Of a stretch of 64,000 nucleotides of DNA, positions 553-54,189 are shown piece by piece; the first letter of the stretch is position 1; the number at the start of each line of letters is the position of its first letter. Source of the DNA: Candidatus Heimdallarchaeota archaeon (GTDB lineage Archaea > Asgardarchaeota > Heimdallarchaeia > Heimdallarchaeales > Kariarchaeaceae); assembly GCA_030149205.1 (NCBI GenBank), contig JASBSB010000001.1, positions 134,357-198,356 of the forward strand, read 5' to 3'. A program made the translations under genes and the position numbers. The notes below the pieces were generated by a model. It worked only from the letters and a program-made list of their open reading frames with translations. It was not told where the DNA came from and did no database searches.

Positions 553-1386
553 TCAAGTGTCAAACTCTAATAAATCTATAAAGTCACACAATTTACAAAA
601 TTGACATACCTTAGATGTGAAATCTTGTTCAGGTAACTTTTTTATATTATTTAATTGTTGTGATTTTTCGTATAAATTAGAAATCTCTTGCAATAATCCC
701 CCAATCGTTTTCTGGTCAATTTTTTGAATTTGATCAAATTTTGGTTTACTATACCAAAGTTCAAGATTTATTTGCTGGTCTGGAAAAGAACTGTATAATA
801 TTTCACCATAAATTTTTATTTGATTCTCATCTTCTAGTTTTGGAGTACCCGTTTTGTATTCAATTATTCGTAATCCACCTGTTTCAGAAAATGCTACCAA
901 GTCAATCTTACCACGTATTTGAAAATTGTGGTTAATTCTATTGATAACAGTAAATTCATCTTGAATTACAAGTGATGTTATCTCATTATTATTAATTGTA
1001 ACCAAACTTTCTGCCATAAGAGCAAGATTATGAAGTTGACTTGTAATTATATCAAAACTATTTGAAAATTCTTGGCGATGGTATTTCCATGGACCTGTAT
1101 TATTCATCCATATTTTTTTTATTGAATCTAATTCAATTTCCATTGATAATAATATTGCATCCTTTATATTCTTACTTTTACGGTGATAAAAAAATTCAAC
1201 ATTACTAAAATTTCTTAGGAATACTCTCTGTAAAATTAAATGTAAAAAATTTCCCGCGTATACAAATTTGTTAGGTGTAAATGGTATTTTTATCTCCTGT
1301 TGAGCATATAATACCTGTAACATTGTTCTTCTTTTACAATTAAATTCATTTACACTTGTAACTCCTAATCTTATTGATTTATTCAT
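553..1386 (-). CDS. Cas4-like PD-(D/E)xK nuclease with predicted 4-Cys (Fe-S) cluster; last gene of the Argonaute operon
   Basis: Motif order matches the Cas4/AddB family. N-terminal Cys (SVNEFNCKRR), GNFLH, GKIDLV...RIIEYKTG (D...ExK core), QIKIY (QxxxY) and C-terminal CQFCKLC. The ATG overlaps the upstream gene's stop by 8 nt (1379-1386). Confidence 0.8.
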   Translation of the reverse strand: MNKSIRLGVTSVNEFNCKRRTMLQVLYAQQEIKIPFTPNKFVYAGNFLHLILQRVFLRNFSNVEFFYHRKSKNIKDAILLSMEIELDSIKKIWMNNTGPWKYHRQEFSNSFDIITSQLHNLALMAESLVTINNNEITSLVIQDEFTVINRINHNFQIRGKIDLVAFSETGGLRIIEYKTGTPKLEDENQIKIYGEILYSSFPDQQINLELWYSKPKFDQIQKIDQKTIGGLLQEISNLYEKSQQLNNIKKLPEQDFTSKVCQFCKLCDFIDLLEFDT

Positions 1387-3148
1387 TTAATGTCCTCCTA
1401 TTTTCCAATAAAAATTCTGAAGAATAGTGCATAGCTAATCCAAGGATAAATGGAAATTTCGGTTTTGATAAACTGTATGGGTTTATGAAGGTTTGATAAA
1501 ATACATCTTGAAGTATTTCTTGGATATCATGCAATCCTTTGATTTTTTCAATAAATAATGGTTTGGGAATACCTTCAAATAAATCATTAGGATATCCATT
1601 TGTCATAATTAATGACTTGTTATCATTAATACTAACTGATAAGCCATCAATTGCTTTAGAAGTATTTTCGATCTGTCCATAAAGGATTGAGTGTGATGAA
1701 TTAACTAAAACTAAACAAAAATTATAATGGGAAATTTTATCAATTAAAGGTAATAACTGTCTGTCTGAAATTTGAATTAAGAAGTGGTCTGAATCACTAA
1801 AATTAATCAATTTTTGTAAGAAATCATTAATTTTAACTTTTTCATCGATATTTTTGTCTCTATCATTATAAAAAATATCATGTGAAATGTTAATATTTCC
1901 CTTATTAGAACTAACACCTGATAATATCATCCATTCTCCTGCATAATATGGTGTTATATGAAGAGCGATTATATTCTGATGATACTTCATTGATACATTT
2001 TGATATAATTTTCGAGTGTATCTAAATCTAATATTCAACCAAATTAGTTTTACAATTTTTCCCCAATCATCTTCTAATATTGTTGAAAATTTAATGATTT
2101 TATTTGGAATTACAATTTTTTCTTTAGTTTTATTGTATACATATCCTGAACCCTTTATTCTATCGTCGATACATATTATAGCTGCATCTGCCTCAAATTT
2201 ATGAAGCTTGGAGACATAATAGCTTTGAATTGTAATATTTAATCCTGTAACTTCTGCAAAATATGAAATAAAATTCTGAATCTTAATGGGGGTATTATCT
2301 GTCACAGATTTATCAATTAAAAATAATATATTGCTAATAAATGGATCAAATGAAATGTTATCCTCTAAAATATCTACTAATGGAGTAGTGTTTAAAGTTT
2401 CAATAGTGTTTGAATTGATTTTTATCGACGGACTATTTATTAAATCCCCTTTCAGATTCTCAATAACAGATAATCTTACATTTCCGATTTGATTTGTATT
2501 TATTACTTTGATTATTTTAAGGAATCTTTGTTCCACTGATTCAAAATTTCGATGTAATTGTAATACTTCTTTTTCTATTACACCAGGTATTAATTTATTA
2601 GATGTTAAGTTAAATGAATTTTCAGATATTTCATGTCTGGGATCATAAAAAACCATAACCTTATCATCTCGCATCTCATGGCATTCAAACCTTTCAGCTT
2701 GAAAAATCGAATACGTGAATGTTTCATTAAACTGTTCAACAGTTTTTTCTACGATAGGATTTATTCTTTGACTAGCTACTCCTTTAGATTTTCCAATAAA
2801 TGACAGTACCTCACTGGGTCTATAATAACCTTTGTTTGAAAATGTAATATATAAGGCTGTCAATACGAATATGTCAAGATTTTGTATTTCTTTCTTTTCA
2901 TTAATCTCTGTAGTACAGATTGAAACAGGGATTGTAGCAATCTCCAAATGTGAAGGTGGTTTTTGTGCGAAAAGGTAATATGAATCCTTTACATATATAA
3001 TTGTAAATGGAACATCTGATAAAAAATCACCATTTTTTAATGCAAAGGTCAGAAAGCTAAATTCATAGTTGTACTGCATGGAAACTTTGTACATTTTTAA
3101 TACAGCTGTATCAATTTGTGCTATCCAACCAAGTATTTTGCATATCAT
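1379..3148 (-). CDS. Second, highly diverged Argonaute-like protein (MID-PIWI-like C-terminal half; N-terminal ~300 aa unassigned)
   Basis: By eye, aa ~325-592 follow the MID->PIWI motif order. YVYNKTKEKIVIPNKII is MID-like; KLIWLNIRFRY sits at the aKlGG helix position; HFLIQISDRQL at the hRDG strand position. GIPKPLFIEKI is GtprP-like and the C-terminal KPKFPFILGLAMHYS sits at the lPxPxxYA position. The ATG at 3148-3146 overlaps the pAgo TGA at 3147-3145 (ATGA). The track's GTG start at 3157 is the alternative. Confidence 0.55.
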   Translation of the reverse strand: MICKILGWIAQIDTAVLKMYKVSMQYNYEFSFLTFALKNGDFLSDVPFTIIYVKDSYYLFAQKPPSHLEIATIPVSICTTEINEKKEIQNLDIFVLTALYITFSNKGYYRPSEVLSFIGKSKGVASQRINPIVEKTVEQFNETFTYSIFQAERFECHEMRDDKVMVFYDPRHEISENSFNLTSNKLIPGVIEKEVLQLHRNFESVEQRFLKIIKVINTNQIGNVRLSVIENLKGDLINSPSIKINSNTIETLNTTPLVDILEDNISFDPFISNILFLIDKSVTDNTPIKIQNFISYFAEVTGLNITIQSYYVSKLHKFEADAAIICIDDRIKGSGYVYNKTKEKIVIPNKIIKFSTILEDDWGKIVKLIWLNIRFRYTRKLYQNVSMKYHQNIIALHITPYYAGEWMILSGVSSNKGNINISHDIFYNDRDKNIDEKVKINDFLQKLINFSDSDHFLIQISDRQLLPLIDKISHYNFCLVLVNSSHSILYGQIENTSKAIDGLSVSINDNKSLIMTNGYPNDLFEGIPKPLFIEKIKGLHDIQEILQDVFYQTFINPYSLSKPKFPFILGLAMHYSSEFLLENRRTLNE

Positions 3149-5346
3149 ATAAACCACGGCTTTTTAAAATGGAAATTCGCCATATCTTTAGGAATTTTGC
3201 CCATACCTCTACTTGATGAATGAATTGGAACTGGGAGCTTAGTTTCAATTCTATCCCATCCAGAATAACAATGGCATAAATCAAAAATCTCATAAAGAAG
3301 TTTTTCAAATCTCTCCTCATCACATTTAATATTTCTTAATACAATTGGATTTTGAGTCCCAACATTTCCTTGTGTTGAAATTAAACCAACTTCAGTCTTA
3401 GATATCCAATAAAAAGTCCCAATATGTGGCCGAAATATTCTATTTTTTTCATTCTTTGAATAAATACGAAGTGGAGACGAAGAAATTACCTCAACAATTG
3501 AATGTTTTAAATTAAGAATATTAAGGCTATGTTCAATATCTTTTAATTCTCTATCATAAAATTTTCCATTCTTTATTAAAACTACTTCATCATTATTTTT
3601 AGTGAGTAACTTAAAAGCACTTTCAAAATTTTGTTGACGATTTTCGACGTTATCAGAAATGTAGTATCCTCCACTAAATCTACCCGAATTATAATATGAA
3701 TTTAGTAACCCCCGATATTTAGTTGCATCTAGTGAGATGTTTTGAGATTGCAAACCAATATATTTTACAAAACCATTTTCATTAACATTCAGTAACCATG
3801 AATGTAGACCTAACTTTGCAATTATACCCAAAAATATATTCCGAAAATACCCATTTTGTCTTGATTCAATTTTATCCTTCAGAACATTAAAATTAATTCC
3901 CTGATGAGGATATTCATTTTTTATTAATTCACCAGATACTAATTCTTTGAATTCACTATCTACACTATCATTATCAGAATGAACCACTATGATACAATTG
4001 TTGTTATTTACAAATTTATCCATATATTCTGATAAGTCTCCCTTTTTTTCGAGAAGTTTTATTTCATCAAACTCAATTTCTGTACTAAGAAATTGTTGAA
4101 GAATGATTATTTCTTTTGTTTCTTTTAGAAATGGCTTTTTTATTAATCCTAATTGATATTCATTATACTCTCGATATAATAAAATCGATATTTTTAACTT
4201 TTCGGGACCCTTATCAAATATCCCATATTTTTGAATTTCTAATGCTGGGTAATCAGTCCTATGTGAATTACCAATAATGTAATTATTCAAATCTAATAGT
4301 CCAGAGTTACATGAGTTCCAAGATTGAAAGTTTCTAATTGGATTTAGAGTTATTGAACCCACGGTTAAATTACCTATAAAACGCATATAATTCTGTGATC
4401 GTTTAAATCTAATCGGAGGGTCAGGCCTAATTTGTTTCATCAGGGCACCTCTATCATGATAATCCAAATGTGAAAATGTTGGTAATTCTCGAATTCTTTC
4501 TAAAGGGTATGAATAATACTCATCATTATCATTTTTATAGAATGATAACGCAATAGGTGGTTCATCTTGTATAAATTCACCAAGCACGGGTGCTCTAGGA
4601 CAAATGAATTTTTGTTTGTGAAACTCAATTATATCTAAATTATCAATTATTACCTCTGAAGGTTTCTTATTTACAATTTTTTTCAATTTCACAGTCTTCC
4701 CAGTTCCAGCATATCTACAGTTTGAGAAAGGATCCTGTTTTTCTGGACATTGAATAATTGGACAAGTATCTACATAATAATTTTTCGGATTTATTTCTAT
4801 ACTAGAATATGAAAGTTTCTCTCTCAATGATACGGATGAATGAAATTTATATTTGAGATCAACTATTACTCCAACTTCACCATTTTTAAGCAAAATTGGA
4901 GCATATTGAAATCCTGGGAAAACATCAATTTTTCCAAAACCCTCGATGGTCTCAGGGCTAGAAACCTCAAATATTGAATTGTAAGTTTCTTGTATCTTCC
5001 ATAATTTATTACTATGTCGTAAATTGACAGCAATAGCATCTCCAATAATTCTTTTCAATAGATCTAAATCATCATCATTTTGGGCTGAAACTAATCTACT
5101 AGTAGGAGGAAATAAATTTACTGCCAAATCTTTTTCGAAATCATCTTCAAGTAATTCGGTTGAAATTATCTTATCTCCAAATTGAATTATAATTTTACGT
5201 CGATTATCTGGAACTTTCCTAAGATTAAGTAATACATCACCAAGTTTTCGAAAGTTTATTTCTTCTTTTTTCCTATATTCAAAGACTGTAACTTTATCTT
5301 TGAATGGTGTTTTTTCAAATTTTAAAATATTAGTTATTATTTCCAT
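3145..5346 (-). CDS. Long prokaryotic Argonaute (N-PAZ-MID-PIWI), predicted catalytically inactive
   Basis: N-terminal TNILKF; PAZ-like block DVFPGFQYAPILLKNGEVGVIVDLKYKF. The MID/PIWI junction reads YPHQGINFNVLKD...FRNIFLGIIAKLGLHSWLL. The PIWI C-terminus reads GTQNPIVL...ETKLPVPIHSS. The hRDG strand reads IKNG (nt 3565-3576), so the third catalytic Asp is Asn. Confidence 0.85.
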   Translation of the reverse strand: MEIITNILKFEKTPFKDKVTVFEYRKKEEINFRKLGDVLLNLRKVPDNRRKIIIQFGDKIISTELLEDDFEKDLAVNLFPPTSRLVSAQNDDDLDLLKRIIGDAIAVNLRHSNKLWKIQETYNSIFEVSSPETIEGFGKIDVFPGFQYAPILLKNGEVGVIVDLKYKFHSSVSLREKLSYSSIEINPKNYYVDTCPIIQCPEKQDPFSNCRYAGTGKTVKLKKIVNKKPSEVIIDNLDIIEFHKQKFICPRAPVLGEFIQDEPPIALSFYKNDNDEYYSYPLERIRELPTFSHLDYHDRGALMKQIRPDPPIRFKRSQNYMRFIGNLTVGSITLNPIRNFQSWNSCNSGLLDLNNYIIGNSHRTDYPALEIQKYGIFDKGPEKLKISILLYREYNEYQLGLIKKPFLKETKEIIILQQFLSTEIEFDEIKLLEKKGDLSEYMDKFVNNNNCIIVVHSDNDSVDSEFKELVSGELIKNEYPHQGINFNVLKDKIESRQNGYFRNIFLGIIAKLGLHSWLLNVNENGFVKYIGLQSQNISLDATKYRGLLNSYYNSGRFSGGYYISDNVENRQQNFESAFKLLTKNNDEVVLIKNGKFYDRELKDIEHSLNILNLKHSIVEVISSSPLRIYSKNEKNRIFRPHIGTFYWISKTEVGLISTQGNVGTQNPIVLRNIKCDEERFEKLLYEIFDLCHCYSGWDRIETKLPVPIHSSSRGMGKIPKDMANFHFKKPWFI

Positions 5347-5348
5347 AT

Positions 5349-6035
5349 TTATCTCTCTTTGTTTTTAAGTAACTCAAATGAACTTATCACCGCAAGGTCT
5401 GTGTTAACCGTTTTTGTTAGTATTTTCTTACAAGCTGAATGCATTATGAAAAATCCTGTACCTAACGCAGTTTTCATTAACTCGTTTTTTGCGGATTGCA
5501 ATAAAATATCATTAACTATTATTTCAGGATGAACTGATGTTGAAAAATATACTTGGATTGTAAATGAACTCGTATCATCCAAAAACAAAAAAGAATTTAT
5601 TCCATCTTTTTTCCAATTACACTTCAGTGAAAAAAGATCTTCAATTCTTGAATTAAACCCGTCTAATCTATTAAATTCTTCGCTAATTTCTTTGATAGGT
5701 AGTATAATTGAAGATTTTAACAAATAATTCCCCATAACTCTCAGGTGCCAATTAGAATTAAATTTATCTACGTCTAATACTTGTATAGTTTGATTGGATT
5801 GATACAATCCTGTATCTTCTTCATAAGAAAGCAGATTATCTTTAGTTAATTGGCTAAGTATCATTTCAACTTCTACATTTGGTATATGATCAAAATATAG
5901 ATTACTTCTCCCAGAACTCATCCAAATATGTTTCACTATATTTGATTTTTTTGCACTACCATAATCTCGCAGGAAATCAAGAATTAATTTTTTAATTGCT
6001 TTCTCCATTGAATCTTTAGGTTTCATATCAATCAC
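5349..6035 (-). CDS. Winged-helix (wHTH)-like N-terminal domain protein with uncharacterised C-terminal domain; Argonaute-operon gene 2
   Basis: The N-terminal ~75 aa (EKAIKKLILDFLRDYGSAKKSNIVKHI...ILSQLTKDNLLSYEEDTGLY) has a wHTH-like helix/wing pattern. The GTG at 6035 overlaps the upstream TGA (GTGA); an ATG at 6026 is the alternative. Only 2 nt separate its stop from the pAgo ATG. Confidence 0.5.
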   Translation of the reverse strand: MIDMKPKDSMEKAIKKLILDFLRDYGSAKKSNIVKHIWMSSGRSNLYFDHIPNVEVEMILSQLTKDNLLSYEEDTGLYQSNQTIQVLDVDKFNSNWHLRVMGNYLLKSSIILPIKEISEEFNRLDGFNSRIEDLFSLKCNWKKDGINSFLFLDDTSSFTIQVYFSTSVHPEIIVNDILLQSAKNELMKTALGTGFFIMHSACKKILTKTVNTDLAVISSFELLKNKER

Positions 6036-7072
6036 CTGACTATCTCCTTAATCTTTGACTTTAGTTCTTCAGAATTATCTACAATTACAACATTCTTAAA
6101 ATTGTAGCGTATTTCATCATAATATTGATTAGAATTGTTTAAAATAATAAAATGGGTAATATCAATAAACGAAGTAAAAGCAAAATTAATTTCATCTACC
6201 TCTTCAGAAGGTAAATGCATATCTACAATCCATAATCCAATTTTTAGGTTATTCAATTCAATGTAAATGGGAATTGTTATACTCTCATTCTGACTATTTG
6301 TAATCTTTATTTCCTTACGGATAAAAATTGGATTGAATTCTTGAATTACATTGAGGAAGCTTTGACCAATTTTCTCCTGTAAATACTTGAAATCATCACT
6401 GAAAGCCGGAATTCCAGATATTTCCTCAAAATCTTTTGCTGTGTATTTTGTTCTCATTTGAGAGCTTGATTTTGTAATTATTTGTTCTATTATATCTTGA
6501 AATATTTGTTTAGGATTACGAATTAGAATATTATATTTTGATAGCTCTTCAAGACATTTACTCTTAATATTATCGAATGGACTTGATGGATGATTGGGGG
6601 CAAAATAATTCCAAACAAATTCTATTTTTTTGAATACTTCAATTTTTTTCTGATCTGTGAATTTTCCTTTGAAAAGAGAATTTATTCTACCTTTATCAGC
6701 ATTTGAAATTTCTAAATTGTTCTGAAGGTTTTGTTGAATTTGCAGTAGTTCAGTAATTTCTGCATTCCAACCCGATTGAGTTGTAAATCGAAATTTAATT
6801 TCTTTTCCAGATAAATTTTTTTCATCTTCCTGTATGAACTTTGTTAAAATTGGTATCAAACTTGATTTATTCCAGACACTATGTTCTTTTTTCTTTACCT
6901 GTTCAAATATAAAGTACCCAGTATATTCTATGTTAATATCTTCTAATTCATCATCCTTTGATTCAAATTCAATTGATAAAATCTGATCTCCTTTAATGAA
7001 TTCAATGACTCTTAGTACTCCAACCATATTTTGGTAATTAATACCATAGTTTGTATCAATTCCACTTGGCAA
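6032..7072 (-). CDS. DUF4297 / Cap4-type dsDNA-endonuclease-like (PD-(D/E)xK fold) N-terminal domain protein; first gene of the Argonaute operon
   Basis: The N-terminus (YGINYQNMVGVLRVIEF...IEFESKDDELEDINIEY...FEQVKKK) matches the G-x-x-YQ ... E..D.D ... QxK pattern of DUF4297 nuclease domains. The C-terminal ~220 aa are unassigned. A TTG start at 7072 is needed to include the YQ motif. Confidence 0.6.
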   Translation of the reverse strand: MPSGIDTNYGINYQNMVGVLRVIEFIKGDQILSIEFESKDDELEDINIEYTGYFIFEQVKKKEHSVWNKSSLIPILTKFIQEDEKNLSGKEIKFRFTTQSGWNAEITELLQIQQNLQNNLEISNADKGRINSLFKGKFTDQKKIEVFKKIEFVWNYFAPNHPSSPFDNIKSKCLEELSKYNILIRNPKQIFQDIIEQIITKSSSQMRTKYTAKDFEEISGIPAFSDDFKYLQEKIGQSFLNVIQEFNPIFIRKEIKITNSQNESITIPIYIELNNLKIGLWIVDMHLPSEEVDEINFAFTSFIDITHFIILNNSNQYYDEIRYNFKNVVIVDNSEELKSKIKEIVR

Positions 7073-7091
7073 TATTTTAAATCTAGTTTTC

Positions 7092-7102
7092 TTTATAATA
7101 AT
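7092..7102 (-). promoter_or_regulatory. TATA-box-like element upstream of the Argonaute operon
   Basis: The minus strand reads attattataaa about 25 nt upstream of the TTG start at 7072, a spacing compatible with a leaderless or short-leader archaeal transcript. TATA-like strings are common in this AT-rich DNA. Confidence 0.3.
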
Positions 7103-7454
7103 TCAGAGATATTGTAATAATCAAAATGAAAGTTTTAAAAATTTAAATATACAATATGTGATATCAAAAAAATTTTATTGCAAAGACTTAAAATAAATGA
7201 GAACTCGAAGCTGGATAAAGACCTATAACCGTGATTTCCTTGAAATATCTCGGATATAATCAAGAAAATAAATTAGTAAATCTAAATCTTGATTGAAATA
7301 TTCTTCGTCTACTAATTATTCTTATTATATTGTTATCTTATAAGAGTTGGAAGTACACAGATATTCGACTTGCTAAGTCAGTATACAATATATATTCAAC
7401 CAGTATCTTTCAACTATGACTACCAATTCCAAAAAAAAAATGAAATTGAATGAA

Positions 7455-8597
7455 TTAATCCAGGTGTTTATTGTTTTTCTTAATATGCTGCAATGTATCT
7501 TCATTGTGAGCTGCCAAATACTCAAAAGAATTGTCATACATAGTTTGATTTAATCTATGAATAATGTCACTTTTTACGAAAATACTATATTCAACAGGAG
7601 TTTTGTTATCAATTGTAGATAAATTATTTGTTATGTATTTCATAAAATTTTCCAGATTTAACAATCCTATCGCAATTGTGGGATTAATTGGTATGTAATA
7701 TTCTAACATAACTGATACTCCATTTACTATTAACTCTGCTATAATCAATGGATTGTCTGAAGTAATTAATTCTACAGGGTGGTCTTGAGGATTTAGTCCA
7801 GATAGATTAATTATGATGATCGGCCTGAGTTCAGTATGTTTTAGTGGTTTATCAACTGTTTCATCAGGCAATTTTTGTAAAACTTCTCTGATTTTATTTT
7901 CAATTTCGATTTGACTATCTTTATGATCTAAAGATTTCTTTATTCCGATACTAATATTTTTACTTATTAAGGATATCATACCTTGTAAGTCGTTTTTTAA
8001 AAAATACCCCTGTGCTTTTTGTAAAAACACCTCGTCATATTTAATATTACTTTGATATAGAATCTCCTGTGTTTCAGTGCTAATAAAACTAAAATCCAAT
8101 ATCTTACTAAATTTCATGTAATTTCTAAATGAAGGTGTTCTAAACGTTAGATGATTAATAAAATCACATAAAATTTCGAAATTTGATTGCAAATGCATAG
8201 CATCTATGAAAGTCTCCGCAAATTTTTTTATATCTAATGATTTTTTGAATATGTTATCTCTATTACTAGGGTTGTAAATTTTTATTTTCTCAGTTTGAAA
8301 ATTTAATTTTTCTAATCCAGTAAAGAACTTAGCGACTTTATCCTCAGCTTCACTCATCAAATCGTCAATCAGTTCCTCTAAAAACCTTGGAGAATAAAAA
8401 CTTTGATTAATCTTTTTTTTGTCAATATCCCCAGTCTTTTTGTTCAACCTAAATACTCTTTTCTTTTTGTTATCTTTTTCAAAATCCTCCTCAATAACAA
8501 AATTTCGTAGAAACCACTGAGGAATATAATGTTGTTTTCTGCCTGACATGAACATAACTGTGGAATAATTGTATATTATAGTATTTGAACGAGACAT
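7455..8597 (-). CDS. DUF4238-like protein (function unknown)
   Basis: The N-terminal motif GRKQHYIPQWFLRNF matches the H-Y-[IV]-P-Q-x-[FY]-L-x-x-F signature of DUF4238. The rest is unassigned. It lies in the same low-GC block as the Argonaute operon. Confidence 0.55.
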   Translation of the reverse strand: MSRSNTIIYNYSTVMFMSGRKQHYIPQWFLRNFVIEEDFEKDNKKKRVFRLNKKTGDIDKKKINQSFYSPRFLEELIDDLMSEAEDKVAKFFTGLEKLNFQTEKIKIYNPSNRDNIFKKSLDIKKFAETFIDAMHLQSNFEILCDFINHLTFRTPSFRNYMKFSKILDFSFISTETQEILYQSNIKYDEVFLQKAQGYFLKNDLQGMISLISKNISIGIKKSLDHKDSQIEIENKIREVLQKLPDETVDKPLKHTELRPIIIINLSGLNPQDHPVELITSDNPLIIAELIVNGVSVMLEYYIPINPTIAIGLLNLENFMKYITNNLSTIDNKTPVEYSIFVKSDIIHRLNQTMYDNSFEYLAAHNEDTLQHIKKNNKHLD

Positions 8598-8704
8598 TAC
8601 AAAATTAATCGATAATTAGATCATTTTCTGAAATTTCAAAGGTTTGTGTTAACAAAAATAATATTAGTCAATATTTCAGACTTGTGTTTCAATCAACAAC
8701 TAAT

Positions 8705-9319
8705 CTACGAATCGAAACCTTCAATTTCTTCAAGATCGTCATAGGTCTGTCTAACTGCTTGATGAACTTGATCTTCGGTCTTTGCACCAGTACACACAAG
8801 ATTCCCACTTTGGAAGAGCAACAATACTGTTTTAGGTTCTTTTAATCGATAGATAAGTCCAGGAAACTGCTCAGGTTCATACATTGATTGTTCTAACCAC
8901 ATGTTTGCGGCTTCAAGGTTAATCACCCTATTGTTGAAATTCCCAGAGGCAACAATATTTTGGACGATAATTTCAGGAGTCTCTTCAATGGTTGTGCCCA
9001 CAGTTCTTAGGATATCAATCATCTGATAAACACCTTGATGAACCATTTCCTCAGATTTTGCACCCGTTATAACCAGTTTACCACTTGAAAACACAAGGGA
9101 TGAGATTTTAGGCTTTTTAGTTTTTAAGATCAGACCAGGAAACTGTTCTGGGTTATAGCTTACTTCTAATTCATCATCATCAATTAACTGTTGAAAGATA
9201 CTGACTAAATCTATGTTTGTGAACAGGTTAACTGAAGCTACACAGTTTTGGATTATAATTTTGAAATCTAATCCGTCGTCTTTGTTTTTTTCTCTTGAGG
9301 GAAGTGTTTCTTGACTCAT
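8705..9319 (-). CDS. tbp: TATA-box binding protein
   Basis: Two direct repeats are present, each with QNxVAS...EQFPGLI...SGKLVITGAK / SGNLVCTGAK. Confidence 0.95.
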   Translation of the reverse strand: MSQETLPSREKNKDDGLDFKIIIQNCVASVNLFTNIDLVSIFQQLIDDDELEVSYNPEQFPGLILKTKKPKISSLVFSSGKLVITGAKSEEMVHQGVYQMIDILRTVGTTIEETPEIIVQNIVASGNFNNRVINLEAANMWLEQSMYEPEQFPGLIYRLKEPKTVLLLFQSGNLVCTGAKTEDQVHQAVRQTYDDLEEIEGFDS

Positions 9320-9461
9320 CTTGATTCAAAATGATTAAGAACTTGCTCTTTTATAAGGCTTAGTAAAAATATCTTTTATTTTGTATGTTCTGATACATAA
9401 AAACACACGCTTGAATTGTAAAGAGAATGCATTTTTCTACAATTTTCCTACGACACAGTAA

Positions 9462-10007
9462 CTATTTTCTTACAAGCTTTTGGTTATCTTGAATCTTCCC
9501 AGCAATTTGCTCAATTTTTAATTCTAGAACCTTGATGATTTTTGTATTGTCGAACTCTTCAAGTGTTTCCCCACATTTTGGACAGATGAAATCATACTCC
9601 ATAGCTTCGTTGAACGTCAAACGGTAACACTCCTTCTTTCCACATGTGAAAAACATGTTTTCCTTCTCATGTTGAAGCCGTTCCATAAGTTTCCATTGTA
9701 TTGCCCTCTGTTTCTTAATAACGACAGAGTTTATGTTTTCAGTCAGTAGTTTCCAAAAATAAATATACCAACCTGTGTTTTTATCCCTGATCCTACGAAA
9801 ACTTGCTATCTCCAAATCATGGAGTTTATACAAGGATTTTCTAACCTCATCAAGTTTAATGTTTAGCTCATCTGCTATAAATTCATCTGTAACCTCTTCA
9901 TCTTGATCAATAAGTAGAATGGTTACTTTTCGGATCTCAGGTCCGGCTACATCCTCCACCATATCTAATAATGTTTGTCTTTCTTGCTCGTTAACTACCA
10001 AATCCAC
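9462..10007 (-). CDS. tfe: Transcription factor E (TFE alpha, TFIIE-alpha homologue)
   Basis: N-terminal wHTH (DEFIADELNIKLDEVRKSLYKLHD) followed by a Zn-ribbon (FFTCGKKEC...FICPKCGETL). Confidence 0.85.
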   Translation of the reverse strand: MDLVVNEQERQTLLDMVEDVAGPEIRKVTILLIDQDEEVTDEFIADELNIKLDEVRKSLYKLHDLEIASFRRIRDKNTGWYIYFWKLLTENINSVVIKKQRAIQWKLMERLQHEKENMFFTCGKKECYRLTFNEAMEYDFICPKCGETLEEFDNTKIIKVLELKIEQIAGKIQDNQKLVRK

Positions 10008-10175
10008 AACCTTTATCGAATTGATTACCAGAGGAATACCCTAATTAACATTAATTTTTGGTATTAAAACCCATATGATGTTGTACTAATCAATTTCACA
10101 TAAATTAGCATCAAGCTGAATAATAACTTTTTATTTGCAAAACTAACAAAGGTTTTAGATTTACCTAACAAATAT

Positions 10176-10766
10176 GTGGTTGTGTTAAAGCTAATTCATC
10201 TAAACATTATGAGGATGGTGGATGGAAAACCTCAGGGAGTGCCAATTTGGAAGACCCCACTAGATCCTGAAAAACACCCAAATTTGTCAGATGATACAAT
10301 CACAACGACGCTAGTGAGTCTTTCAAAGCGATTTGTACGACCATCCTTAGAGGGAAAAAATTATAATTTTGTAAAACTTTCCTTTAATAACATCATTTTT
10401 GATATTTACCTCCCTTCCAGTGGAAAAGATCAGTTTGCTTTAATCACTATCTTTCAATCTGAACCCCCAATAAAGACAACAGAAAAAGAAAGAGATGAAT
10501 TGATTTTAACCTTAGTCTCAAAGATTAAGAAGATAGAAGAATTTAGAAAGGTATTCACAAAAAGTTTTGGGGATCAAAGTTTAGAGATTGAATTCAATTC
10601 CACTCTGTACAAAAAAATCCTCAGTGTGGTCTTTGATGAGGTCGAAAAGTTCAACAACATTAAACTGCATAAACTGAAAGAGGAGATTGAAAAGAAAAGG
10701 AGGATACAGGAGGAGAAAATAGAAAAATTCATGTCAGATACTGAAAATACAGAGGATAATGAATAA
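10176..10766 (+). CDS. Hypothetical protein; possible Roadblock/longin-like alpha/beta domain plus C-terminal charged coiled coil
   Basis: The ORF starts with GTG; ATG codons at M12/M14 are alternatives. A beta-beta-alpha-beta-beta-beta-alpha-like hydrophobic pattern is seen by eye only. The C-terminus is EEIEKKRRIQEEKIEK. Confidence 0.4.
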   Translation: MVVLKLIHLNIMRMVDGKPQGVPIWKTPLDPEKHPNLSDDTITTTLVSLSKRFVRPSLEGKNYNFVKLSFNNIIFDIYLPSSGKDQFALITIFQSEPPIKTTEKERDELILTLVSKIKKIEEFRKVFTKSFGDQSLEIEFNSTLYKKILSVVFDEVEKFNNIKLHKLKEEIEKKRRIQEEKIEKFMSDTENTEDNE

Positions 10767-10829
10767 ATCATCACTCTAAATTACCTCTGTGATGAAAATA
10801 TTTAATATAAAAGTGAATTATGTTAAGTA

Positions 10830-11672
10830 TTGAATCTTTTTGATAAGTATTCCCCGAATAAAAAGAATACAGAAATCAGGGTGGGGACTGTAGAAGAGAA
10901 TTTTGTTTTAGAAGAACAACCATCAAGGGAAATTGTTTTTAAGTCAGCCAGTGAAATATTAGAGGACTCAAAGCTCTCCCAACCAATAAGTACTGGGGTC
11001 TCGGGTCTAAATCAGCTTTTGCATGGAGGAATAGAGCGAGGTAGTATTACGGAAGTGTTTGGCTCTCCCACGGTTGGCAAATCTCAATTTGCCTTTCAAA
11101 TAACCAAGAATAATTCTCTTGGGAAGTATAAACCAATTAGCATTTTTATTGATACCGAAGGTACTTTTAAACCTCAAAGAATTGTACAAATGTTGAAACA
11201 TCAAAAAGCAAGTCAATCATCAACCAAAGATGTTCTTGACAATATTATGGTGTTCTCAGTGAGTAATTATAAGGATCAAATAAAGGTGGTTCAAAGCATT
11301 TTTCAAATGCCAAATCTGGAGAATGTTGGGCTAATTGTAATTGATTCTCTAACAAACCTTTTCAGAGCTCAATTGAGCTCAAAAAGCCAAATTATCAGAA
11401 GACAGCAACTTATTAATCTTCAACTGTCGAAATTAAGAAGTTTAGCACAGAGAAACAAAATCGCAGTTCTTGTTACAAATCAGGTCGGAATGGATTACCA
11501 AGCCCAACGAAATATTCCAGTTGGTGGAAATATTCTTGCACATGGGGTGACCCATAGGCTACAGATAGAGAGAATGGACGGTGGAAATAAACGATTGTTT
11601 AAAATCGTTAGCTCTCCTTTCATACCAGAAGGTGTAATTGAATTACGTTTGACTGAACAAGGGTTAATCTGA
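10830..11672 (+). CDS. RadA/Rad51-family recombinase paralogue lacking the N-terminal HhH domain (RadB-like)
   Basis: Walker A GSPTVGKSQ, IDTEGTFKPQRIVQ, Walker B LIVIDSLTNLFRA, RRQQL...VLVTNQV and VGGNILAHGVTHRL. TTG start. Confidence 0.8.
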   Translation: MNLFDKYSPNKKNTEIRVGTVEENFVLEEQPSREIVFKSASEILEDSKLSQPISTGVSGLNQLLHGGIERGSITEVFGSPTVGKSQFAFQITKNNSLGKYKPISIFIDTEGTFKPQRIVQMLKHQKASQSSTKDVLDNIMVFSVSNYKDQIKVVQSIFQMPNLENVGLIVIDSLTNLFRAQLSSKSQIIRRQQLINLQLSKLRSLAQRNKIAVLVTNQVGMDYQAQRNIPVGGNILAHGVTHRLQIERMDGGNKRLFKIVSSPFIPEGVIELRLTEQGLI

Positions 11673-51211: not shown

Positions 51212-52645
51212 TTAACGGCTGTTTCGACCATCTCTGCCTTTTTTTAACCTGCGTGAGTGGAGTAAGGACTTTAAATCTCTTGGTTTTTCTCTCTCTTCTT
51301 TGAGATTTTTAATTCTACGTTGGTTAAGATGTTCCTCCCAGAATTTCTTCCTCTCTTGAAAATTCATCCTAGACATATCATCAGGTTCAACTTTGTTTCC
51401 TTGAATTATGTTTCTTTTAAACCGTTTTTCCAAACTTTGACTTCCCTTAGAACTGGTTTCAGAACCCGTTTCAGAACTCGCAGCGGAACTAGTGGAAGAA
51501 GAAATATCAACCCTTGAAATTCTGTTTTCCCATAATTTCTTTCTCTCTTCAAATTGTTCCTTAAAATTTTTTAATTCATTTAACCTACTTGACTTTTTAG
51601 AGGTTACCTCAGTCTTTTGATTTCGAACACCTATTCTCGAAGGTGATCGGGGAGTAACAGAAATAGGTTCAGCCATTACATCCCCAATTTTTTGATAAAC
51701 CCTATGACTACCAGATATTGTTTTAAGAGTGTTTTTCCAACTTCCAAAAAGAGTTTCAGTTCTCCCAATGATTAAGAACCCACCAGGGTTCAATGATTCT
51801 ACAAATTTCTCAATTATCCTCCTCTGTTCCTGCTTATCAATATAAATTAAAACATTTCTGCAGAAAATTGCATCAAATCCCTTTGGATAGGTATCTTTAT
51901 TGAGATCGTGTAAAGAGAAGTTTACTCTATTACGAATTTCCTTATTTACCTTGTAATACCCTTCCCCTGTAAGTTTAAAATATTTTGTGGCTTCAATCTT
52001 ACGAGTCTCACTTAAATAAGAGCCATCGTAAGTCGCATGTCGAGCAATTTCGAGTAAATCTGGATTGACGTCTGTGGCTAAAATTCTCAACCTCAGGTCA
52101 TTTGTTCTTAATTTGTCTTCGAATATCATTGAGATCGTATAAGGTTCTGCTCCCACTGCGCACCCTGCTGACCAAATTTTGATTTCACTCCCTTTCCTCG
52201 AACCATTGGAAGTGATCTGTGGTACAATATGATCTCTCACAAGTTCAAATGTATCTCTGTTTCTGAAGAATCGAGTTACATTGATTGACAATGACTCCTT
52301 GATTTTCGAAATTTCACCAAAATTTCTTTTGATATAGGCCAAATACTCAGAATAAGAACTCATGTTTAACCTATTCATTCTCATCCTTATCCTACGAGTG
52401 ATATATCGCTCTTTGTAAGCTGAGGTTTCGATTCCTTGCTTTTTAAGATGAGATAGCAAATAAGGCAGGTTGGTCTCATCTAGTTTACGCTCTTTTGTAT
52501 TAATTGAAAATAGCCGTTCAGAAACAGTTGAATTACCCTTTCGAGGCGATTTACTTGAAGTTTTGTTCAAATAAGATTCTGGACCTAATCCCCGACCGAG
52601 GGTTGCTCCTTTTGCAACTTTTGGTTTATCTTTACCTGAGACCAC
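51212..52645 (-). CDS. cheR: CheR-type protein-glutamate O-methyltransferase with basic N- and long Ser/Lys/Arg-rich C-terminal extensions
   Basis: TRFFRNRDTFE, IKIWSAGCAVGAEPYTISM, ILATDVN, IFCRNVLIYID and LNPGGFLIIG. Confidence 0.8.
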   Translation of the reverse strand: MVSGKDKPKVAKGATLGRGLGPESYLNKTSSKSPRKGNSTVSERLFSINTKERKLDETNLPYLLSHLKKQGIETSAYKERYITRRIRMRMNRLNMSSYSEYLAYIKRNFGEISKIKESLSINVTRFFRNRDTFELVRDHIVPQITSNGSRKGSEIKIWSAGCAVGAEPYTISMIFEDKLRTNDLRLRILATDVNPDLLEIARHATYDGSYLSETRKIEATKYFKLTGEGYYKVNKEIRNRVNFSLHDLNKDTYPKGFDAIFCRNVLIYIDKQEQRRIIEKFVESLNPGGFLIIGRTETLFGSWKNTLKTISGSHRVYQKIGDVMAEPISVTPRSPSRIGVRNQKTEVTSKKSSRLNELKNFKEQFEERKKLWENRISRVDISSSTSSAASSETGSETSSKGSQSLEKRFKRNIIQGNKVEPDDMSRMNFQERKKFWEEHLNQRRIKNLKEEREKPRDLKSLLHSRRLKKGRDGRNSR

Positions 52646-52680
52646 AATAATAATAAGATTTACTCAAATAAAACTCTTAT

Positions 52681-54189
52681 CTATCTTTTTAACTTTCTAA
52701 TAATTACCAAAATTAGTGTGAAAATAACGAATGAGATAATCGTAAAGGGAACAGGAGTAGTTTTGCTGTCAAACTGAGCGGACAAAATCCCTGAATTTTT
52801 GATTTGTCTAACCCATAGCCCATTAGAGTTTTGACTATCTAGCAAGGTAGTTGTTAATCTTTGAATTGTATTGTTGACTATCCCCGATAGTTGGAGAATC
52901 CGCAAAGTTTCATAATTTTTAGCCAAAACCTGCAATACCCCAGCTATACCTTCAGAATAGGAAAGATCGAAAAATCGATCTTCTTTATTAGACGAGTGGA
53001 TCAGATAATAATTCCAACTACCTGTTTGGACGTTGGTTACATTCACAATTTGTGAGTTAAGAAAGTCAAGAAAGGCAGATTTTAGAGATGTCTGTTGAGT
53101 CCGAGTAAGTTTATTATAACTACTCAAAAGGAAATCAAAAACACCAAGGACACCTGAACTTAGGGAGTTTAGTTGAATTGAACTGTTCGGTTGCACGTGA
53201 AAATAGGGGGAGACAGAGGAAAGTTTATTCATCACTAATTGGAGTGGTGTTTGTATCTCTTTTGAATAATCAGTTTGTGAGCTTCCTAAAGATTCAAGGA
53301 TACCAGAGACACCTGAATTAAGATTGTAATTAAGCTCAGTTGTATCGTTTTCCGTATTCCAAAGACCATTGGGTAGCTGCCTAGAGACCAAGTAGGAATA
53401 CACCTTTTTGGAAAAATCTAATATTGAGGAATTTTGACTTATTCCTGCAAAATTTTGAAGTGATAGGGCTATTCCTGCCATTCCCTTCCCATATCCGTAT
53501 ATTTCAACTCCAGCAAACCCCTTTTCAAATGGGTACCAAGGTATTGATATCCCCGATTGGTGTTTGGTTGAAATTGAATACAACCAATTCACTACTTTTT
53601 CTCCCCATTTAAGATAGGTTTGATTCTTTGTTAATTTATACAAGGAACCAACTGCTCCTAAGATTCCTGCTGAGCCGAATTCAAGTCCTGACAGAGGGAT
53701 GCCAAATGCTTTGCTCACATTTGAATCCGCATATCCCCAGAAAGCCTTGTTTCCATCCAAAATTGAGCGGGTAAATAATAAATTGAGGGCGGACTGAGCC
53801 TGGTCAAACCAAATCCTATTCTTTGAAAAATTGTAATAGGACAACAACGAATTAATTATTCCTGACTGACCATATTTATCACCAACATAAATTACTGAAT
53901 AATTATCAACCGTTTTTCGCCAAAGGGAGAGGGGGGTCCCATATAGGTCATTTATACGCTCATTTAAAAGGCCCTGATAAAATTGACTTAAGCTCCTGTT
54001 TACTTCACCCTGTAACTTAACTGGGAGAATAGGGTAGACTTTAATCAAAGTTTTTGCAATACCAGCCCCACCATATTCAAATCCCAGGTATGTTGAATAG
54101 TCTTGTTCTGGAAGCGGTGGTGCTTGAGAATGAACTGTCAGAGGCAAAATAAGAATTAATACTATAAATAACCCGGAAAATAACCTCAC
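52681..54189 (-). CDS. Secreted, C-terminally anchored LanC-like (alpha/alpha-toroid) repeat protein without cysteines
   Basis: Signal peptide present. There are at least 7 G-x-[AS]-G-I motifs at helix starts: GGAGIAKTL, GQSGIINSL, GSAGILGAV, GMAGIALSL, GVSGILESL, GVLGVFDFL and GIAGVLQVL. The C-terminus is a TM helix plus RKLKR. Confidence 0.5.
   Translation of the reverse strand: MRLFSGLFIVLILILPLTVHSQAPPLPEQDYSTYLGFEYGGAGIAKTLIKVYPILPVKLQGEVNRSLSQFYQGLLNERINDLYGTPLSLWRKTVDNYSVIYVGDKYGQSGIINSLLSYYNFSKNRIWFDQAQSALNLLFTRSILDGNKAFWGYADSNVSKAFGIPLSGLEFGSAGILGAVGSLYKLTKNQTYLKWGEKVVNWLYSISTKHQSGISIPWYPFEKGFAGVEIYGYGKGMAGIALSLQNFAGISQNSSILDFSKKVYSYLVSRQLPNGLWNTENDTTELNYNLNSGVSGILESLGSSQTDYSKEIQTPLQLVMNKLSSVSPYFHVQPNSSIQLNSLSSGVLGVFDFLLSSYNKLTRTQQTSLKSAFLDFLNSQIVNVTNVQTGSWNYYLIHSSNKEDRFFDLSYSEGIAGVLQVLAKNYETLRILQLSGIVNNTIQRLTTTLLDSQNSNGLWVRQIKNSGILSAQFDSKTTPVPFTIISFVIFTLILVIIRKLKR

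What the first reader, a model, noticed from the sequence alone, without database searches (positions are those of the whole stretch)
3145..5346. Full-length pAgo with a disrupted catalytic strand (RDG -> KNG) and a Cys cluster in the PAZ-region insert
Seen in the sequence: the strand that normally reads h-R-D-G reads I-K-N-G (nt 3565-3576). The GxDV-type first catalytic strand is ambiguous: IGLQS at aa 530-534, or ISLDAT at aa 537-542. The tail reads LPVPIHSSS rather than P.P..YAH/D. Four cysteines (CPIIQCPEKQDPFSNC ... FICP, aa 195-249, nt 4600-4764) sit inside the PAZ-like region and could form a Zn site. A long PAZ-containing architecture combined with an inactive PIWI and accessory nucleases differs from typical long-B pAgos, which have a reduced PAZ.
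Basis: partly seen in the sequence, partly recalled or inferred. Interest (0 to 1): 0.55.

Follow-up and report, generated by a model that had tools for sequence, protein, structure and literature searches.

The report
Dead archaeal Argonaute in five-gene operon
This gene encodes a full-length archaeal Argonaute that has lost its cutting residues, carries four invariant cysteines in its guide-3'-end (PAZ) domain, and sits in a conserved five-gene operon with a second, degenerate Argonaute-like protein and two nucleases, which looks like a new variant of Argonaute-based defence.

Summary

All four catalytic positions are substituted: D1→Q533 (IGLQS, not ISLDAT), Glu finger ≈Q571, D2→N593 (IKNG), D/H→S712.

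The four cysteines are invariant in all 28 full-length relatives, down to 19% identity, and are absent from the nearest active relatives.

The clade is small and archaeal. It resembles long-A more than long-B pAgos.

New here: the downstream 589-aa gene is a degenerate MID-PIWI paralogue (hhalign 98%, E 3e-14). About ten loci conserve the operon [effector]–[~230 aa]–[pAgo]–[PIWI-like]–[Cas4-family nuclease].

The first gene varies between loci: a Cap4/HamA-type nuclease here, a caspase-like protease or an HD protein elsewhere.

Best reading: a guide-directed sensor that activates a swappable effector, with a Cas4-like guide processor. This is a new variant of a known kind. No function was tested.

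The parts
3145..5346 (-). Catalytically inactive long pAgo, 733 aa (P0001), with N-L1-PAZ-L2-MID-PIWI architecture.
4477..4956 (-). PAZ region, about aa 131-290 (approximate boundaries), including the second subdomain: beta-hairpin 190-225 and helix 239-242 with an (I/L)IE(F/Y)H motif.
   Evidence: DSSP of the model. Profile alignment to the CpAgo/CbAgo PAZ, where 'LIDYY' aligns with 'lieYh'. Definition of the PAZ subdomains from PMC6299218.
4600..4764 (-). Cys4 cluster: C195-x4-C200-x9-C210 in the hairpin loop, plus C249 after the PAZ helix. Presumed structural metal (Zn) site and hallmark of the clade. The extended motif is D-x-C-P-x3-C-x-E-K-x-D-P-x-S-x-C.
   Evidence: Positions. Invariant in 25/25 and in all 28 full-length sequences plus fragments. 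Absent from the active relatives P0052-P0060. The loop is an insertion relative to CpAgo/CbAgo. Loop pLDDT is 87-91 without secondary structure. Metal binding itself is an inference.
3802..4206 (-). MID domain, about aa 381-515. Q482, N503 and K511 of the 5'-end pocket are conserved. The canonical first two pocket residues (Y, K) are replaced (K467/S471 by MAFFT) and vary within the clade.
   Evidence: Alignment columns. Invariant and near-invariant lists. The conserved C-terminal PWF(I/V) tail appears.
3148..3801 (-). PIWI domain, about aa 516-733, with all four catalytic positions substituted: Q533 (nt 3748-3750), about Q571, N593 (nt 3568-3570), S712 (nt 3211-3213).
1379..3148 (-). Partner protein, 589 aa (P0003; the ORF can be extended to a GTG at 3157). 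The N-terminal ~320 aa has no detectable homology. The C-terminal ~270 aa (nt about 1418-2191) is a degenerate MID(C-half)-PIWI domain without conserved catalytic residues. Its start overlaps the pAgo stop.
   Evidence: hhalign of partner profile against pAgo family: 97.2% / 3.4e-11, 98.3% / 2.6e-14, 98.7% against A2. Controls were all <=0.5%. In the profile search of the PDB, the top 11 hits are all Argonautes at the PIWI C-terminus; CtAgo scores 6.2e-5. PADLOC PIWI hit at 1.2e-5. The AF2 model failed (pLDDT 33).
553..1386 (-). Cas4-family PD-(D/E)xK nuclease, 277 aa. Invariant C17 + C261/C264/C267 give an Fe-S 'staple' pattern. D162, E176-x-K178 and Q189/Y193 are also invariant. It resembles Argonaute-associated Cas4 enzymes (ACE).
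   Evidence: Pfam PDDEXK_1 5e-11. PADLOC Cas4c, Cas4 and Aga_Cas4-like_Nuc. Invariant residues. The best PDB matches are 9iab/9iac at E 5e-3; these I take to be the ACE1 structures because their codes are consecutive with CtAgo 9iad. ACE definition from PMC12094033.
5349..6035 (-). Conserved ~228-aa protein of unknown fold, with a possible N-terminal winged-helix-like segment. It always lies immediately upstream of the pAgo. Proposed adaptor.
   Evidence: Homologues at the same position in L001, L007, L005, L012, L015 and L016. No Pfam or PADLOC hit. Only a weak PadR-like PDB match, E 1.4.
6032..7072 (-). Cap4/HamA-type (DUF4297) PD-(D/E)xK nuclease, 346 aa, with invariant E37, D45 and Q58-x-K60, plus a ~140-aa C-terminal domain. 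Proposed effector and first gene of the operon.
   Evidence: Pfam Cap4_nuclease 9.7e-10, 39.4 bits against cut-off 26.2. PADLOC LmuA and HamA. Invariant residues. PDB 8zue 'Anti-bacteriophage protein A' at 2.6e-5. The C-terminal domain is shared with the caspase-like protein of L015.
7073..7454 (-). AT-rich intergenic region upstream of the first gene; presumed promoter of the five-gene operon. The genes within the operon overlap or lie 2 nt apart.
   Evidence: Sequence. ORF coordinates. Promoter function is an inference.

Best explanation
The gene encodes the sensor subunit of a multi-component, Argonaute-based defence system of uncultured archaea.

The long pAgo has lost slicer activity but keeps a full guide-binding architecture. 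The MID pocket keeps its Q/N/K residues and the C-terminal tail. The PAZ is complete, and its second subdomain is probably stapled by a Cys4 metal site. I infer that the pAgo binds a small nucleic-acid guide and recognises complementary invader nucleic acid.

It probably works as a complex with the co-translated, degenerate MID-PIWI paralogue encoded immediately downstream and with the ~228-aa protein encoded immediately upstream.

The Cas4-family (ACE-like) nuclease most likely generates or trims guides, as ACE1 does for CtAgo.

Target recognition is then relayed to the protein in the first gene slot. Here that is a Cap4/HamA-type DNase, which would degrade DNA, either the invader's or collaterally (abortive infection). 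In other members the slot holds a caspase-like protease or an HD-domain protein.

Shown here: the fold, the dead tetrad, Cys4 invariance, PIWI homology of the partner, intact nuclease motifs, operon conservation and effector swapping. Inferred: guide binding, complex formation, activation logic, the defence role and metal binding.
For: - Full-length Argonaute fold.
- Tetrad replaced by Q533 / ~Q571 / N593 / S712. No member of the Cys4 clade has an intact DEDX.
- Guide-pocket residues Q482, N503 and K511 and the C-terminal PWF(I/V) tail are conserved.
- Cys4 is invariant across 28 full-length homologues.
- The partner is a PIWI-family protein.
- The genes are tightly packed or overlapping.
- The core [~230 aa]-[pAgo]-[partner]-[Cas4-like] is conserved in the window, L001, L005, L007, L008, L012, L014, L015, L016 and the P0006 contig, at 25-64% pAgo identity. 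L006, where the contig is cut inside the pAgo gene, keeps pAgo-partner-Cas4.
- The effector slot holds a Cap4-like nuclease, a caspase-like protein at 1e-15, or an HD-CE protein at 2e-34.
- The Cap4-like and caspase-like proteins share a C-terminal domain: hmmsearch 2.8e-6, hhalign 61%.
- Nuclease catalytic residues are invariant.
- The nearest solved pAgo is CtAgo and the nearest solved relatives of the Cas4-like gene are 9iab/9iac. The APACE1 mechanism is described in PMC12094033.
- There is precedent for inactive long pAgos activating nuclease effectors: BPAN, PMC10620215.
Against: - No experimental or expression data exist for any member.
- The locus sits among housekeeping genes (TBP, TFE, RadB-like), not in an obvious defence island.
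- The canonical Y/K half of the MID 5'-phosphate pocket is missing, so guide binding could be atypical or lost.
- Complex formation is inferred only from gene order and overlap.
- The shared effector C-terminal domain rests on a weak match: 16 bits, hhalign 61%.
- Two related loci abut the HerA-NurA-Mre11-Rad50 operon. That could point to a DNA-repair role instead of defence.
- The partner structure could not be modelled.
- Cys clustering was not measured.
Confidence: 0.55

Rival explanations
1. DNA-repair or end-processing accessory. The dead pAgo, its PIWI-like paralogue and the two PD-(D/E)xK nucleases would work with the archaeal HerA-NurA-Mre11-Rad50 end-resection machinery in recombination, replication termination or chromosome processing, rather than in immunity.
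For: Two independent loci place the operon directly next to HerA-Mre11-Rad50 (L012) or NurA-HerA-Mre11-Rad50 (P0006 contig), on opposite sides of that operon. The window has a RadB-like gene 3.7 kb away. The Nitrososphaera viennensis relative is followed by an SMC_N/AAA_23 protein. From general knowledge, some pAgos act in decatenation or recombination.
Against: A caspase-like protease and an HD protein in the same slot as the nuclease are typical of defence effectors, not repair. Most loci (the window, L001, L005, L007, L008, L014, L015, L016) are not next to HerA-NurA. Adjacency could equally reflect guide generation from resection products, which fits a defence role.
Confidence: 0.15
2. Stand-alone guide-directed binder. 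The pAgo would silence targets simply by binding, as originally proposed for RsAgo, and the neighbouring genes would not be mechanistically coupled to it.
For: The pAgo is inactive yet retains PAZ, MID and PIWI. More distant Cys4-clade members (N. viennensis P0022, P0027) lack the partner and Cas4 genes.
Against: The partner, the Cas4-like gene and the ~230-aa gene keep the same order and overlap with the pAgo across homologues down to ~25% identity. Chance does not maintain such synteny.
Confidence: 0.1
3. Still a nuclease. The pAgo would cleave targets using non-canonical residues, for example E568, D540 or H692 in place of DEDX.
For: P0001 has acidic or His residues near the active-site strands: E568, D540 in ISLDAT, H692 in LCHCY.
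Against: D540 and H692 are already changed in the 64%-identical homologue. E568 is not conserved in the clade. All three carboxylate positions that bind metal are substituted (Q, N, S) and vary freely among relatives.
Confidence: 0.03
4. The Cys cluster is not a Zn site. It could be a [4Fe-4S] or other Fe-S/redox centre, or disulfides, possibly sensing redox state rather than just stabilising the PAZ.
For: Four invariant Cys. The hosts are likely anaerobes from vent or sediment metagenomes. The co-encoded Cas4-like protein itself has an Fe-S type Cys pattern.
Against: The spacing C-x4-C-x9-C-x38-C, with a CPxxxC knuckle in a hairpin loop, is more typical of structural Zn sites (general knowledge). 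No data discriminate between the options.
Confidence: 0.15

Closest known systems
APACE1 (cyanobacterial long-A pAgo CtAgo/MaAgo + ACE1 Cas4-family nuclease; PMC12094033)
   Different: CtAgo has an intact DEDX and cleaves DNA; this protein has Q/Q/N/S. Identity to CtAgo is only 16%. APACE1 is a two-gene system. This operon has five genes, including a PIWI-like paralogue, a ~228-aa protein and a separate effector. CtAgo lacks the Cys4 insertion. The host here is archaeal, not cyanobacterial.
Long-B pAgo systems BPAN/BPAS/BPAM (PMC10620215) and RsAgo
   Same: A catalytically inactive full-length pAgo is co-encoded with a PD-(D/E)xK nuclease or another toxic effector. The likely logic is that target recognition activates the effector.
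Short pAgo systems (SPARTA, SPARSA, SPARDA, SiAgo-Aga1-Aga2)
   Same: These are inactive PIWI proteins that work as obligate heteromers with partner proteins and activate interchangeable effectors (TIR, SIR2, DREN nuclease, membrane protein). The partner gene here resembles a short pAgo in retaining only MID-PIWI.
   Different: Here the MID-PIWI-only protein accompanies a complete long pAgo rather than an APAZ protein. No APAZ, TIR or SIR2 domain was detected. The effectors are Cap4-like nuclease, caspase-like protease or HD protein.
AfAgo / AfAgo-N heterodimer (split Argonaute of Archaeoglobus fulgidus; PDB 8pvv)
   Same: It is an archaeal precedent for an Argonaute function assembled from two adjacent genes.
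   Different: AfAgo-N supplies the missing N-L1-L2 half to a truncated pAgo. Here both genes carry a PIWI domain and the long pAgo is already complete.
Hachiman HamA / CBASS Cap4 / Lamassu LmuA nuclease effectors (PF14130, DUF4297)
   Same: The first gene has this nuclease domain above Pfam's cut-off, with the D...QxK residues invariant.
   Different: It is not accompanied by a HamB helicase, a CD-NTase or an SMC partner. It is fused to a different C-terminal domain that is shared with a caspase-like protein in a sister operon.

Membership tests
Argonaute/PIWI superfamily, long pAgo | Bilobed N-L1-PAZ-L2-MID-PIWI architecture with an RNase H-like PIWI fold | tested here: met
Argonaute/PIWI superfamily, long pAgo | MID 5'-end pocket (Y/R-K-Q-K type) and a C-terminal carboxylate tail | tested here: inconclusive
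   Q482, N503, K511 and the C-terminal PWF(I/V) are conserved. The first Y and K positions are K467/S471 and vary within the clade. Binding itself cannot be tested with these tools.
Catalytically active (slicer) pAgo | Intact DEDX tetrad | tested here: not met
   The positions are Q533, ~Q571, N593 and S712 by alignment to CtAgo, CpAgo and CbAgo. No clade member is intact.
Long-B pAgo clade (Ryazansky 2018) | Phylogenetic placement within long-B on a MID-PIWI tree | tested here: inconclusive
Long-B pAgo clade (Ryazansky 2018) | Incomplete PAZ* lacking the second subdomain (typical of the clade, not universal) | tested here: not met
   The beta-hairpin 190-225 and helix 239-242 are present and align with the CpAgo/CbAgo PAZ. 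The Cys loop is an extra insertion there.
Long-B pAgo clade (Ryazansky 2018) | Absence of the catalytic tetrad | tested here: met
APACE1 (long-A pAgo + ACE1) | Co-encoded Cas4-family enzyme with a D-(D/E)xK motif and 1+3 Cys | tested here: met
   C17, C261, C264, C267, D162, E176 and K178 are invariant. Pfam PDDEXK_1 hits at 5e-11. The best PDB hits, 9iab/9iac, score only E 5e-3. Clade assignment as ACE1, ACE2 or other was not tested.
APACE1 (long-A pAgo + ACE1) | Catalytically active, siDNA-guided DNA-cleaving pAgo in a two-gene cyanobacterial operon | tested here: not met
   The tetrad is dead. The operon has five genes. The host is archaeal, with TBP, TFE and a thermosome in the window.
PIWI-domain protein (for the 589-aa partner) | Detectable homology to MID-PIWI of Argonautes | tested here: met
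   hhalign gives 98.3% / 2.6e-14 over 260 columns. Controls were <=0.5%. The top 11 PDB profile hits are all Argonautes. No structure is available, because the AF2 model has pLDDT 33.
Cap4/HamA-type nuclease (PF14130) for the first gene | Pfam gathering score and conserved PD-(D/E)xK-type catalytic residues | tested here: met
   39.4 bits against a cut-off of 26.2. E37, D45, Q58 and K60 are invariant in four homologues. The motif aligns to AbpA 8zue.
Structural Zn (Cys4) site | Four Cys thiolates within coordination distance, with bound metal | not testable with these tools
   Only invariance and high pLDDT of an otherwise unstructured loop are available. Model coordinates cannot be read.

The most novel reading that the evidence does not exclude
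A 'double-Argonaute' immune sensor. A dead long pAgo with a metal-stapled PAZ forms a heteromer with a degenerate PIWI paralogue. Through a small adaptor and a common docking domain, it activates interchangeable effectors, including a caspase-like protease. That would be the first Argonaute system with a protease output and the first with two PIWI-family subunits. It may take its guides from the archaeal HerA-NurA-Mre11-Rad50 resection machinery via a Cas4-like trimmer.
Probability: 0.3. Interest if true: 0.8.

Novelty: new variant of a known kind. Interest (0 to 1): 0.62.

Why it matters
Inactive pAgos that trigger effectors (SPARTA, SPARDA, BPAN, SiAgo) are a fast-moving field, but every known system pairs one PIWI protein with an APAZ-type or effector partner.

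This archaeal clade would add four things:
- a full-length dead pAgo that is nearest to the long-A slicers rather than to long-B;
- a clade-defining Cys4 site in the PAZ subdomain that holds the guide 3' end;
- a second, degenerate PIWI-family subunit;
- a swappable effector slot that includes a caspase-like protease.

If the model is right, it shows a new way of wiring Argonaute recognition to cell-level responses. It also links ACE-type Cas4 nucleases to inactive pAgos.

The family is rare: 65 representatives among 1.84 billion proteins, all from uncultured archaea and Nitrososphaera. No PADLOC pAgo model fits it closely, so current annotation would at best call it a generic or solo pAgo.

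Tried and rejected
- Pfam gave no hit for the pAgo, the partner or the 228-aa protein.
- The word-indexed homologue search found only one relative of the pAgo and of the partner, and only five partner sequences with a profile. The exhaustive HMMER search was needed.
- AF2 of the partner with a 2-sequence alignment failed (pLDDT 33). No fold search of the partner was therefore possible.
- The partner's N-terminal 320 aa shows no significant similarity to the pAgo N/L1/PAZ region (hhalign 1.6%) or to any PDB chain.
- The 228-aa protein has no significant PDB or Pfam match. Homology of the L014 236-aa protein to it was not supported.
- AFDB Foldseek was not available.
- The first search for related loci attempt, with the 30-sequence alignment, was rejected for lack of conserved stretches.
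- Rfam found nothing in the window.
- Host identity could not be established. Accession searches in the literature led only to an unrelated mention of 'Dive100' vent samples.
- Literature searches for a Zn-binding PAZ in pAgos, for tandem pAgo/PIWI partners, and for pAgo with Cap4/DUF4297 found no description.
- The DUF4238 gene upstream (7455..8597) is not conserved next to the operon in L001, so it was left out of the system.
- ISLDAT as the catalytic strand, and H692 as the fourth residue, were considered and rejected.

Full report
**1. The observation**

The minus-strand ORF 3145..5346 is intact, with an ATG start and 733 aa.
- IKNG, aa 591-594 (nt 3565-3576)
- IGLQS, aa 530-534
- ISLDAT, aa 537-542
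- LPVPIHSSS, aa 704-712
- CPIIQCPEKQDPFSNC, aa 195-210
- FICP, aa 247-250

Pfam does not recognise the protein. Several PADLOC pAgo models do, at 1e-39 to 1e-7. phmmer finds one solved relative, CtAgo (9iad), at E 2e-5.

**2. It is a full-length Argonaute**

The exhaustive HMMER search of 1.84 billion representatives returned only 65 proteins. With an alignment of 30 of them, AlphaFold2 gave a confident model, with mean pLDDT 91.9 and pTM 0.89.

**3. The catalytic tetrad**

Three alignments to solved proteins agree: phmmer to CtAgo, and family profiles to CtAgo, CpAgo and CbAgo.
- IGLQ aligns with IGLD, so D1 becomes Q533.
- V-L-I-K-N-G aligns with L-I-Y-R-D-G, so D2 becomes N593.
- In the tail, P705-V-P-I-H-S-S-S712 aligns with CbAgo P720-I-T-T-G-Y-A-D727. 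The fourth residue is therefore S712.
- The Glu-finger column falls at about Q571 and is unconserved.

D540 is already lost in the 64%-identical homologue, and so is H692.

Across 28 full-length relatives, none has an intact DEDX. The more distant hits P0052-P0060, which lack the Cys motif, have GLD/RDG/D-or-H and are CtAgo-like active long-A proteins.

**4. The cysteine cluster**

C195, C200, C210 and C249 are four of only fourteen invariant columns in 25 sequences that share 19-64% identity with the query. They are present in every full-length member, and in every fragment as far as the fragment extends. They are absent from the active relatives.

The extended motif is D-x-C-P-x3-C-x-E-K-x-D-P-x-S-x-C. 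It is an insertion relative to CpAgo and CbAgo.

In the model, the first three Cys lie in a 23-residue loop joining strands 190-193 and 217-225. C249 follows the short helix 239-242, which carries the conserved (I/L)IE(F/Y)H motif. That hairpin-plus-helix is the second PAZ subdomain, the part missing from the long-B PAZ* (PMC6299218). The loop has no secondary structure yet scores pLDDT 87-91.

All this fits a structural metal site stapling the 3'-end pocket. I could not read model coordinates, so spatial clustering and the identity of the metal remain untested. I found no report of a metal-binding PAZ in pAgos.

**5. Guide-binding features**

Q482, N503 and K511 of the MID pocket, and the hydrophobic C-terminal PWF(I/V) tail, are conserved. 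The canonical first Y and K positions are not. I infer that nucleic-acid binding is retained but that 5'-end recognition may be atypical.

**6. Which kind of pAgo?**

A profile built only from the inactive Cys4 clade scores as follows:
- CpAgo: 167 bits
- CbAgo: 145 bits
- AaAgo: 135 bits
- CtAgo: 119 bits
- KmAgo: 107 bits
- EcAgo (long-B, of BPAN): 81 bits
- RsAgo (long-B): 53 bits

Inactive long-A pAgos with nuclease neighbours are a known category: 21% of long-A lack DEDX, and 53% of those have nucleases in their operons (PMC6299218).

No clade member scores above about 250 bits on any PADLOC pAgo model, whereas the active relative P0052 scores 665 bits. The clade is not specifically modelled there.

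**7. The surroundings: a five-gene operon**

All five genes are on the minus strand and overlap or lie 2 nt apart.
- 6032..7072 encodes a Cap4/HamA-type nuclease. Pfam PF14130 scores 39.4 bits against a cut-off of 26.2. E37, D45 and Q58-x-K60 are invariant. The best PDB match is 8zue, at 2.6e-5.
- 5349..6035 encodes a conserved 228-aa protein with no recognisable family.
- 3145..5346 is the pAgo.
- 1379..3148 encodes a 589-aa protein, described in section 8.
- 553..1386 encodes a Cas4-family nuclease. C17, C261, C264, C267, D162 and E176-x-K178 are invariant. Its best PDB matches are 9iab and 9iac. I take these to be the ACE1 structures of the APACE1 study, because their codes are consecutive with CtAgo 9iad (PMC12094033).

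So both the pAgo and its Cas4-like neighbour have their nearest solved relatives in the same published system.

**8. The 589-aa neighbour is a second, degenerate PIWI protein**

The evidence comes from four sources.
- Single-sequence hints: PADLOC PIWI at 1.2e-5 and SPARTA short pAgos at E 0.1.
- Profile-profile comparison: 97.2% / 3.4e-11 with four sequences. With six sequences it is 98.3% / 2.6e-14 over 260 columns, covering the second half of MID and all of PIWI.
- Controls: unrelated alignments, ten column-shuffles and a reversed profile all gave 0.5% or less.
- PDB search with the six-sequence profile: CtAgo at 6.2e-5, and the eleven best hits are all Argonautes matched at the PIWI C-terminus.

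The catalytic positions of this protein are not conserved. Basic residues K350 and R376 are invariant at the columns of the pAgo's Q482 and K511.

Its N-terminal 320 residues match nothing, and its AF2 model failed.

I found no description of a long pAgo paired with a PIWI-like paralogue.

**9. Conservation and modularity**

The core [~230 aa]-[pAgo]-[PIWI-like 589-653 aa]-[Cas4-like 273-304 aa] recurs in L001, L005, L007, L008, L012, L014, L015, L016 and one JGI contig, at pAgo identities of 25-64%. L006, where the contig is cut inside the pAgo gene, keeps pAgo-partner-Cas4.

The first gene varies:
- Cap4-like nuclease in the window, L001, L005, L007 and L012
- caspase-like Peptidase_C14 in L015 (1e-15)
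- HD-CE protein in L008 (2e-34)
- unassigned proteins in L014

The C-terminal ~140 residues of the Cap4-like proteins match the C-terminus of the caspase-like protein (hmmsearch 2.8e-6 among six sequences; hhalign 61%). This suggests, but does not prove, a common docking domain.

More distant Cys4-clade pAgos have other neighbours. Examples are Nitrososphaera viennensis EN76 (record CP007536; organism name from my own knowledge of that accession) and P0027.

**10. Mechanism**

Swapping a nuclease, a protease and an HD protein on a constant sensor core is the signature of sensor-effector defence systems. The closest precedents are inactive long-B pAgos that activate a nuclease on guide-directed target recognition (BPAN, PMC10620215) and ACE1 trimming guides for CtAgo (PMC12094033).

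I therefore propose the following. The dead pAgo, probably in complex with the PIWI-like paralogue and the 228-aa protein, binds guides processed by the Cas4-like nuclease. It recognises invader nucleic acid and activates the Cap4-type DNase.

Only the parts list, the motif states and the synteny are shown. Binding, assembly, activation and the defence role are inferred. My confidence is about 0.55.

The main rival is a DNA-repair-linked role. It is prompted by two loci that abut the HerA-NurA-Mre11-Rad50 operon. That adjacency would also fit guide biogenesis from resection products.

**11. Verdict**

The comparison with long-B is misplaced, and the Zn site is likely but unproven.

The locus is more interesting than described, because it is a conserved five-gene system with a second PIWI-family subunit and a swappable effector. 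I rate it a new variant of a known kind, with interest 0.62.

Noticed in passing
L012 1-5002 and the JGI 3300042731 contig (P0006; no DNA held): In two related loci the pAgo operon lies directly beside the archaeal DNA-end-resection genes. In L012 the order is HerA(DUF87)-Mre11-Rad50, then the operon. On the P0006 contig it is the operon, then NurA-HerA-Mre11-Rad50. The operon sits on opposite sides of the resection genes in the two cases. This may be a functional link, such as guide generation or repair.
   Followed up: partly
L005 507-6007: Immediately upstream of a sister operon, and divergent from it, lie Tn7-like genes. They are a 1041-aa protein with weak TnsA-like N-terminal and Mu-transposase C-terminal hits, a TniB/TnsC-like ATPase (431 aa, 3e-12) and a 373-aa protein. 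The pAgo system may be transposon cargo there.
   Followed up: no
L015 144-1322 and L008 277-1464: Sister operons carry a caspase-like Peptidase_C14 protein or an HD-CE protein in the slot occupied by the Cap4-like nuclease in the window. To my knowledge, a protease effector has not been described for Argonaute systems.
   Followed up: partly
window 7455-8597 (-): A DUF4238 protein (380 aa, Pfam 6e-15) lies just upstream of the operon on the same strand, 382 nt away. It is not conserved next to the operon in L001. Its function is unknown.
   Followed up: partly
window 8705-11672: The system is embedded among core archaeal genes rather than in an obvious defence island: TBP (8705-9319), TFE-alpha (9462-10007) and a RadA/RadB-like ATPase (10830-11672).
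   Followed up: no
L010 (CP007536; Nitrososphaera viennensis EN76 by my knowledge of the accession) 8001-10319: A cultivated thaumarchaeon encodes a Cys4-PAZ pAgo (P0022). It has D1 retained, D2 changed to E (KEG) and the fourth residue changed to N. Its neighbours differ: a 269-aa upstream gene and an SMC_N/AAA_23 1120-aa protein downstream. It could be a tractable organism for testing the Cys4 site.
   Followed up: no
window 51212-54189 and 56437-57897: Unrelated to the finding: a CheR methyltransferase, a LanC-like protein and an EutA-like protein are encoded in the same window.
   Followed up: no
window 1-64000: No Rfam family reaches its gathering score anywhere in the window.
   Followed up: yes
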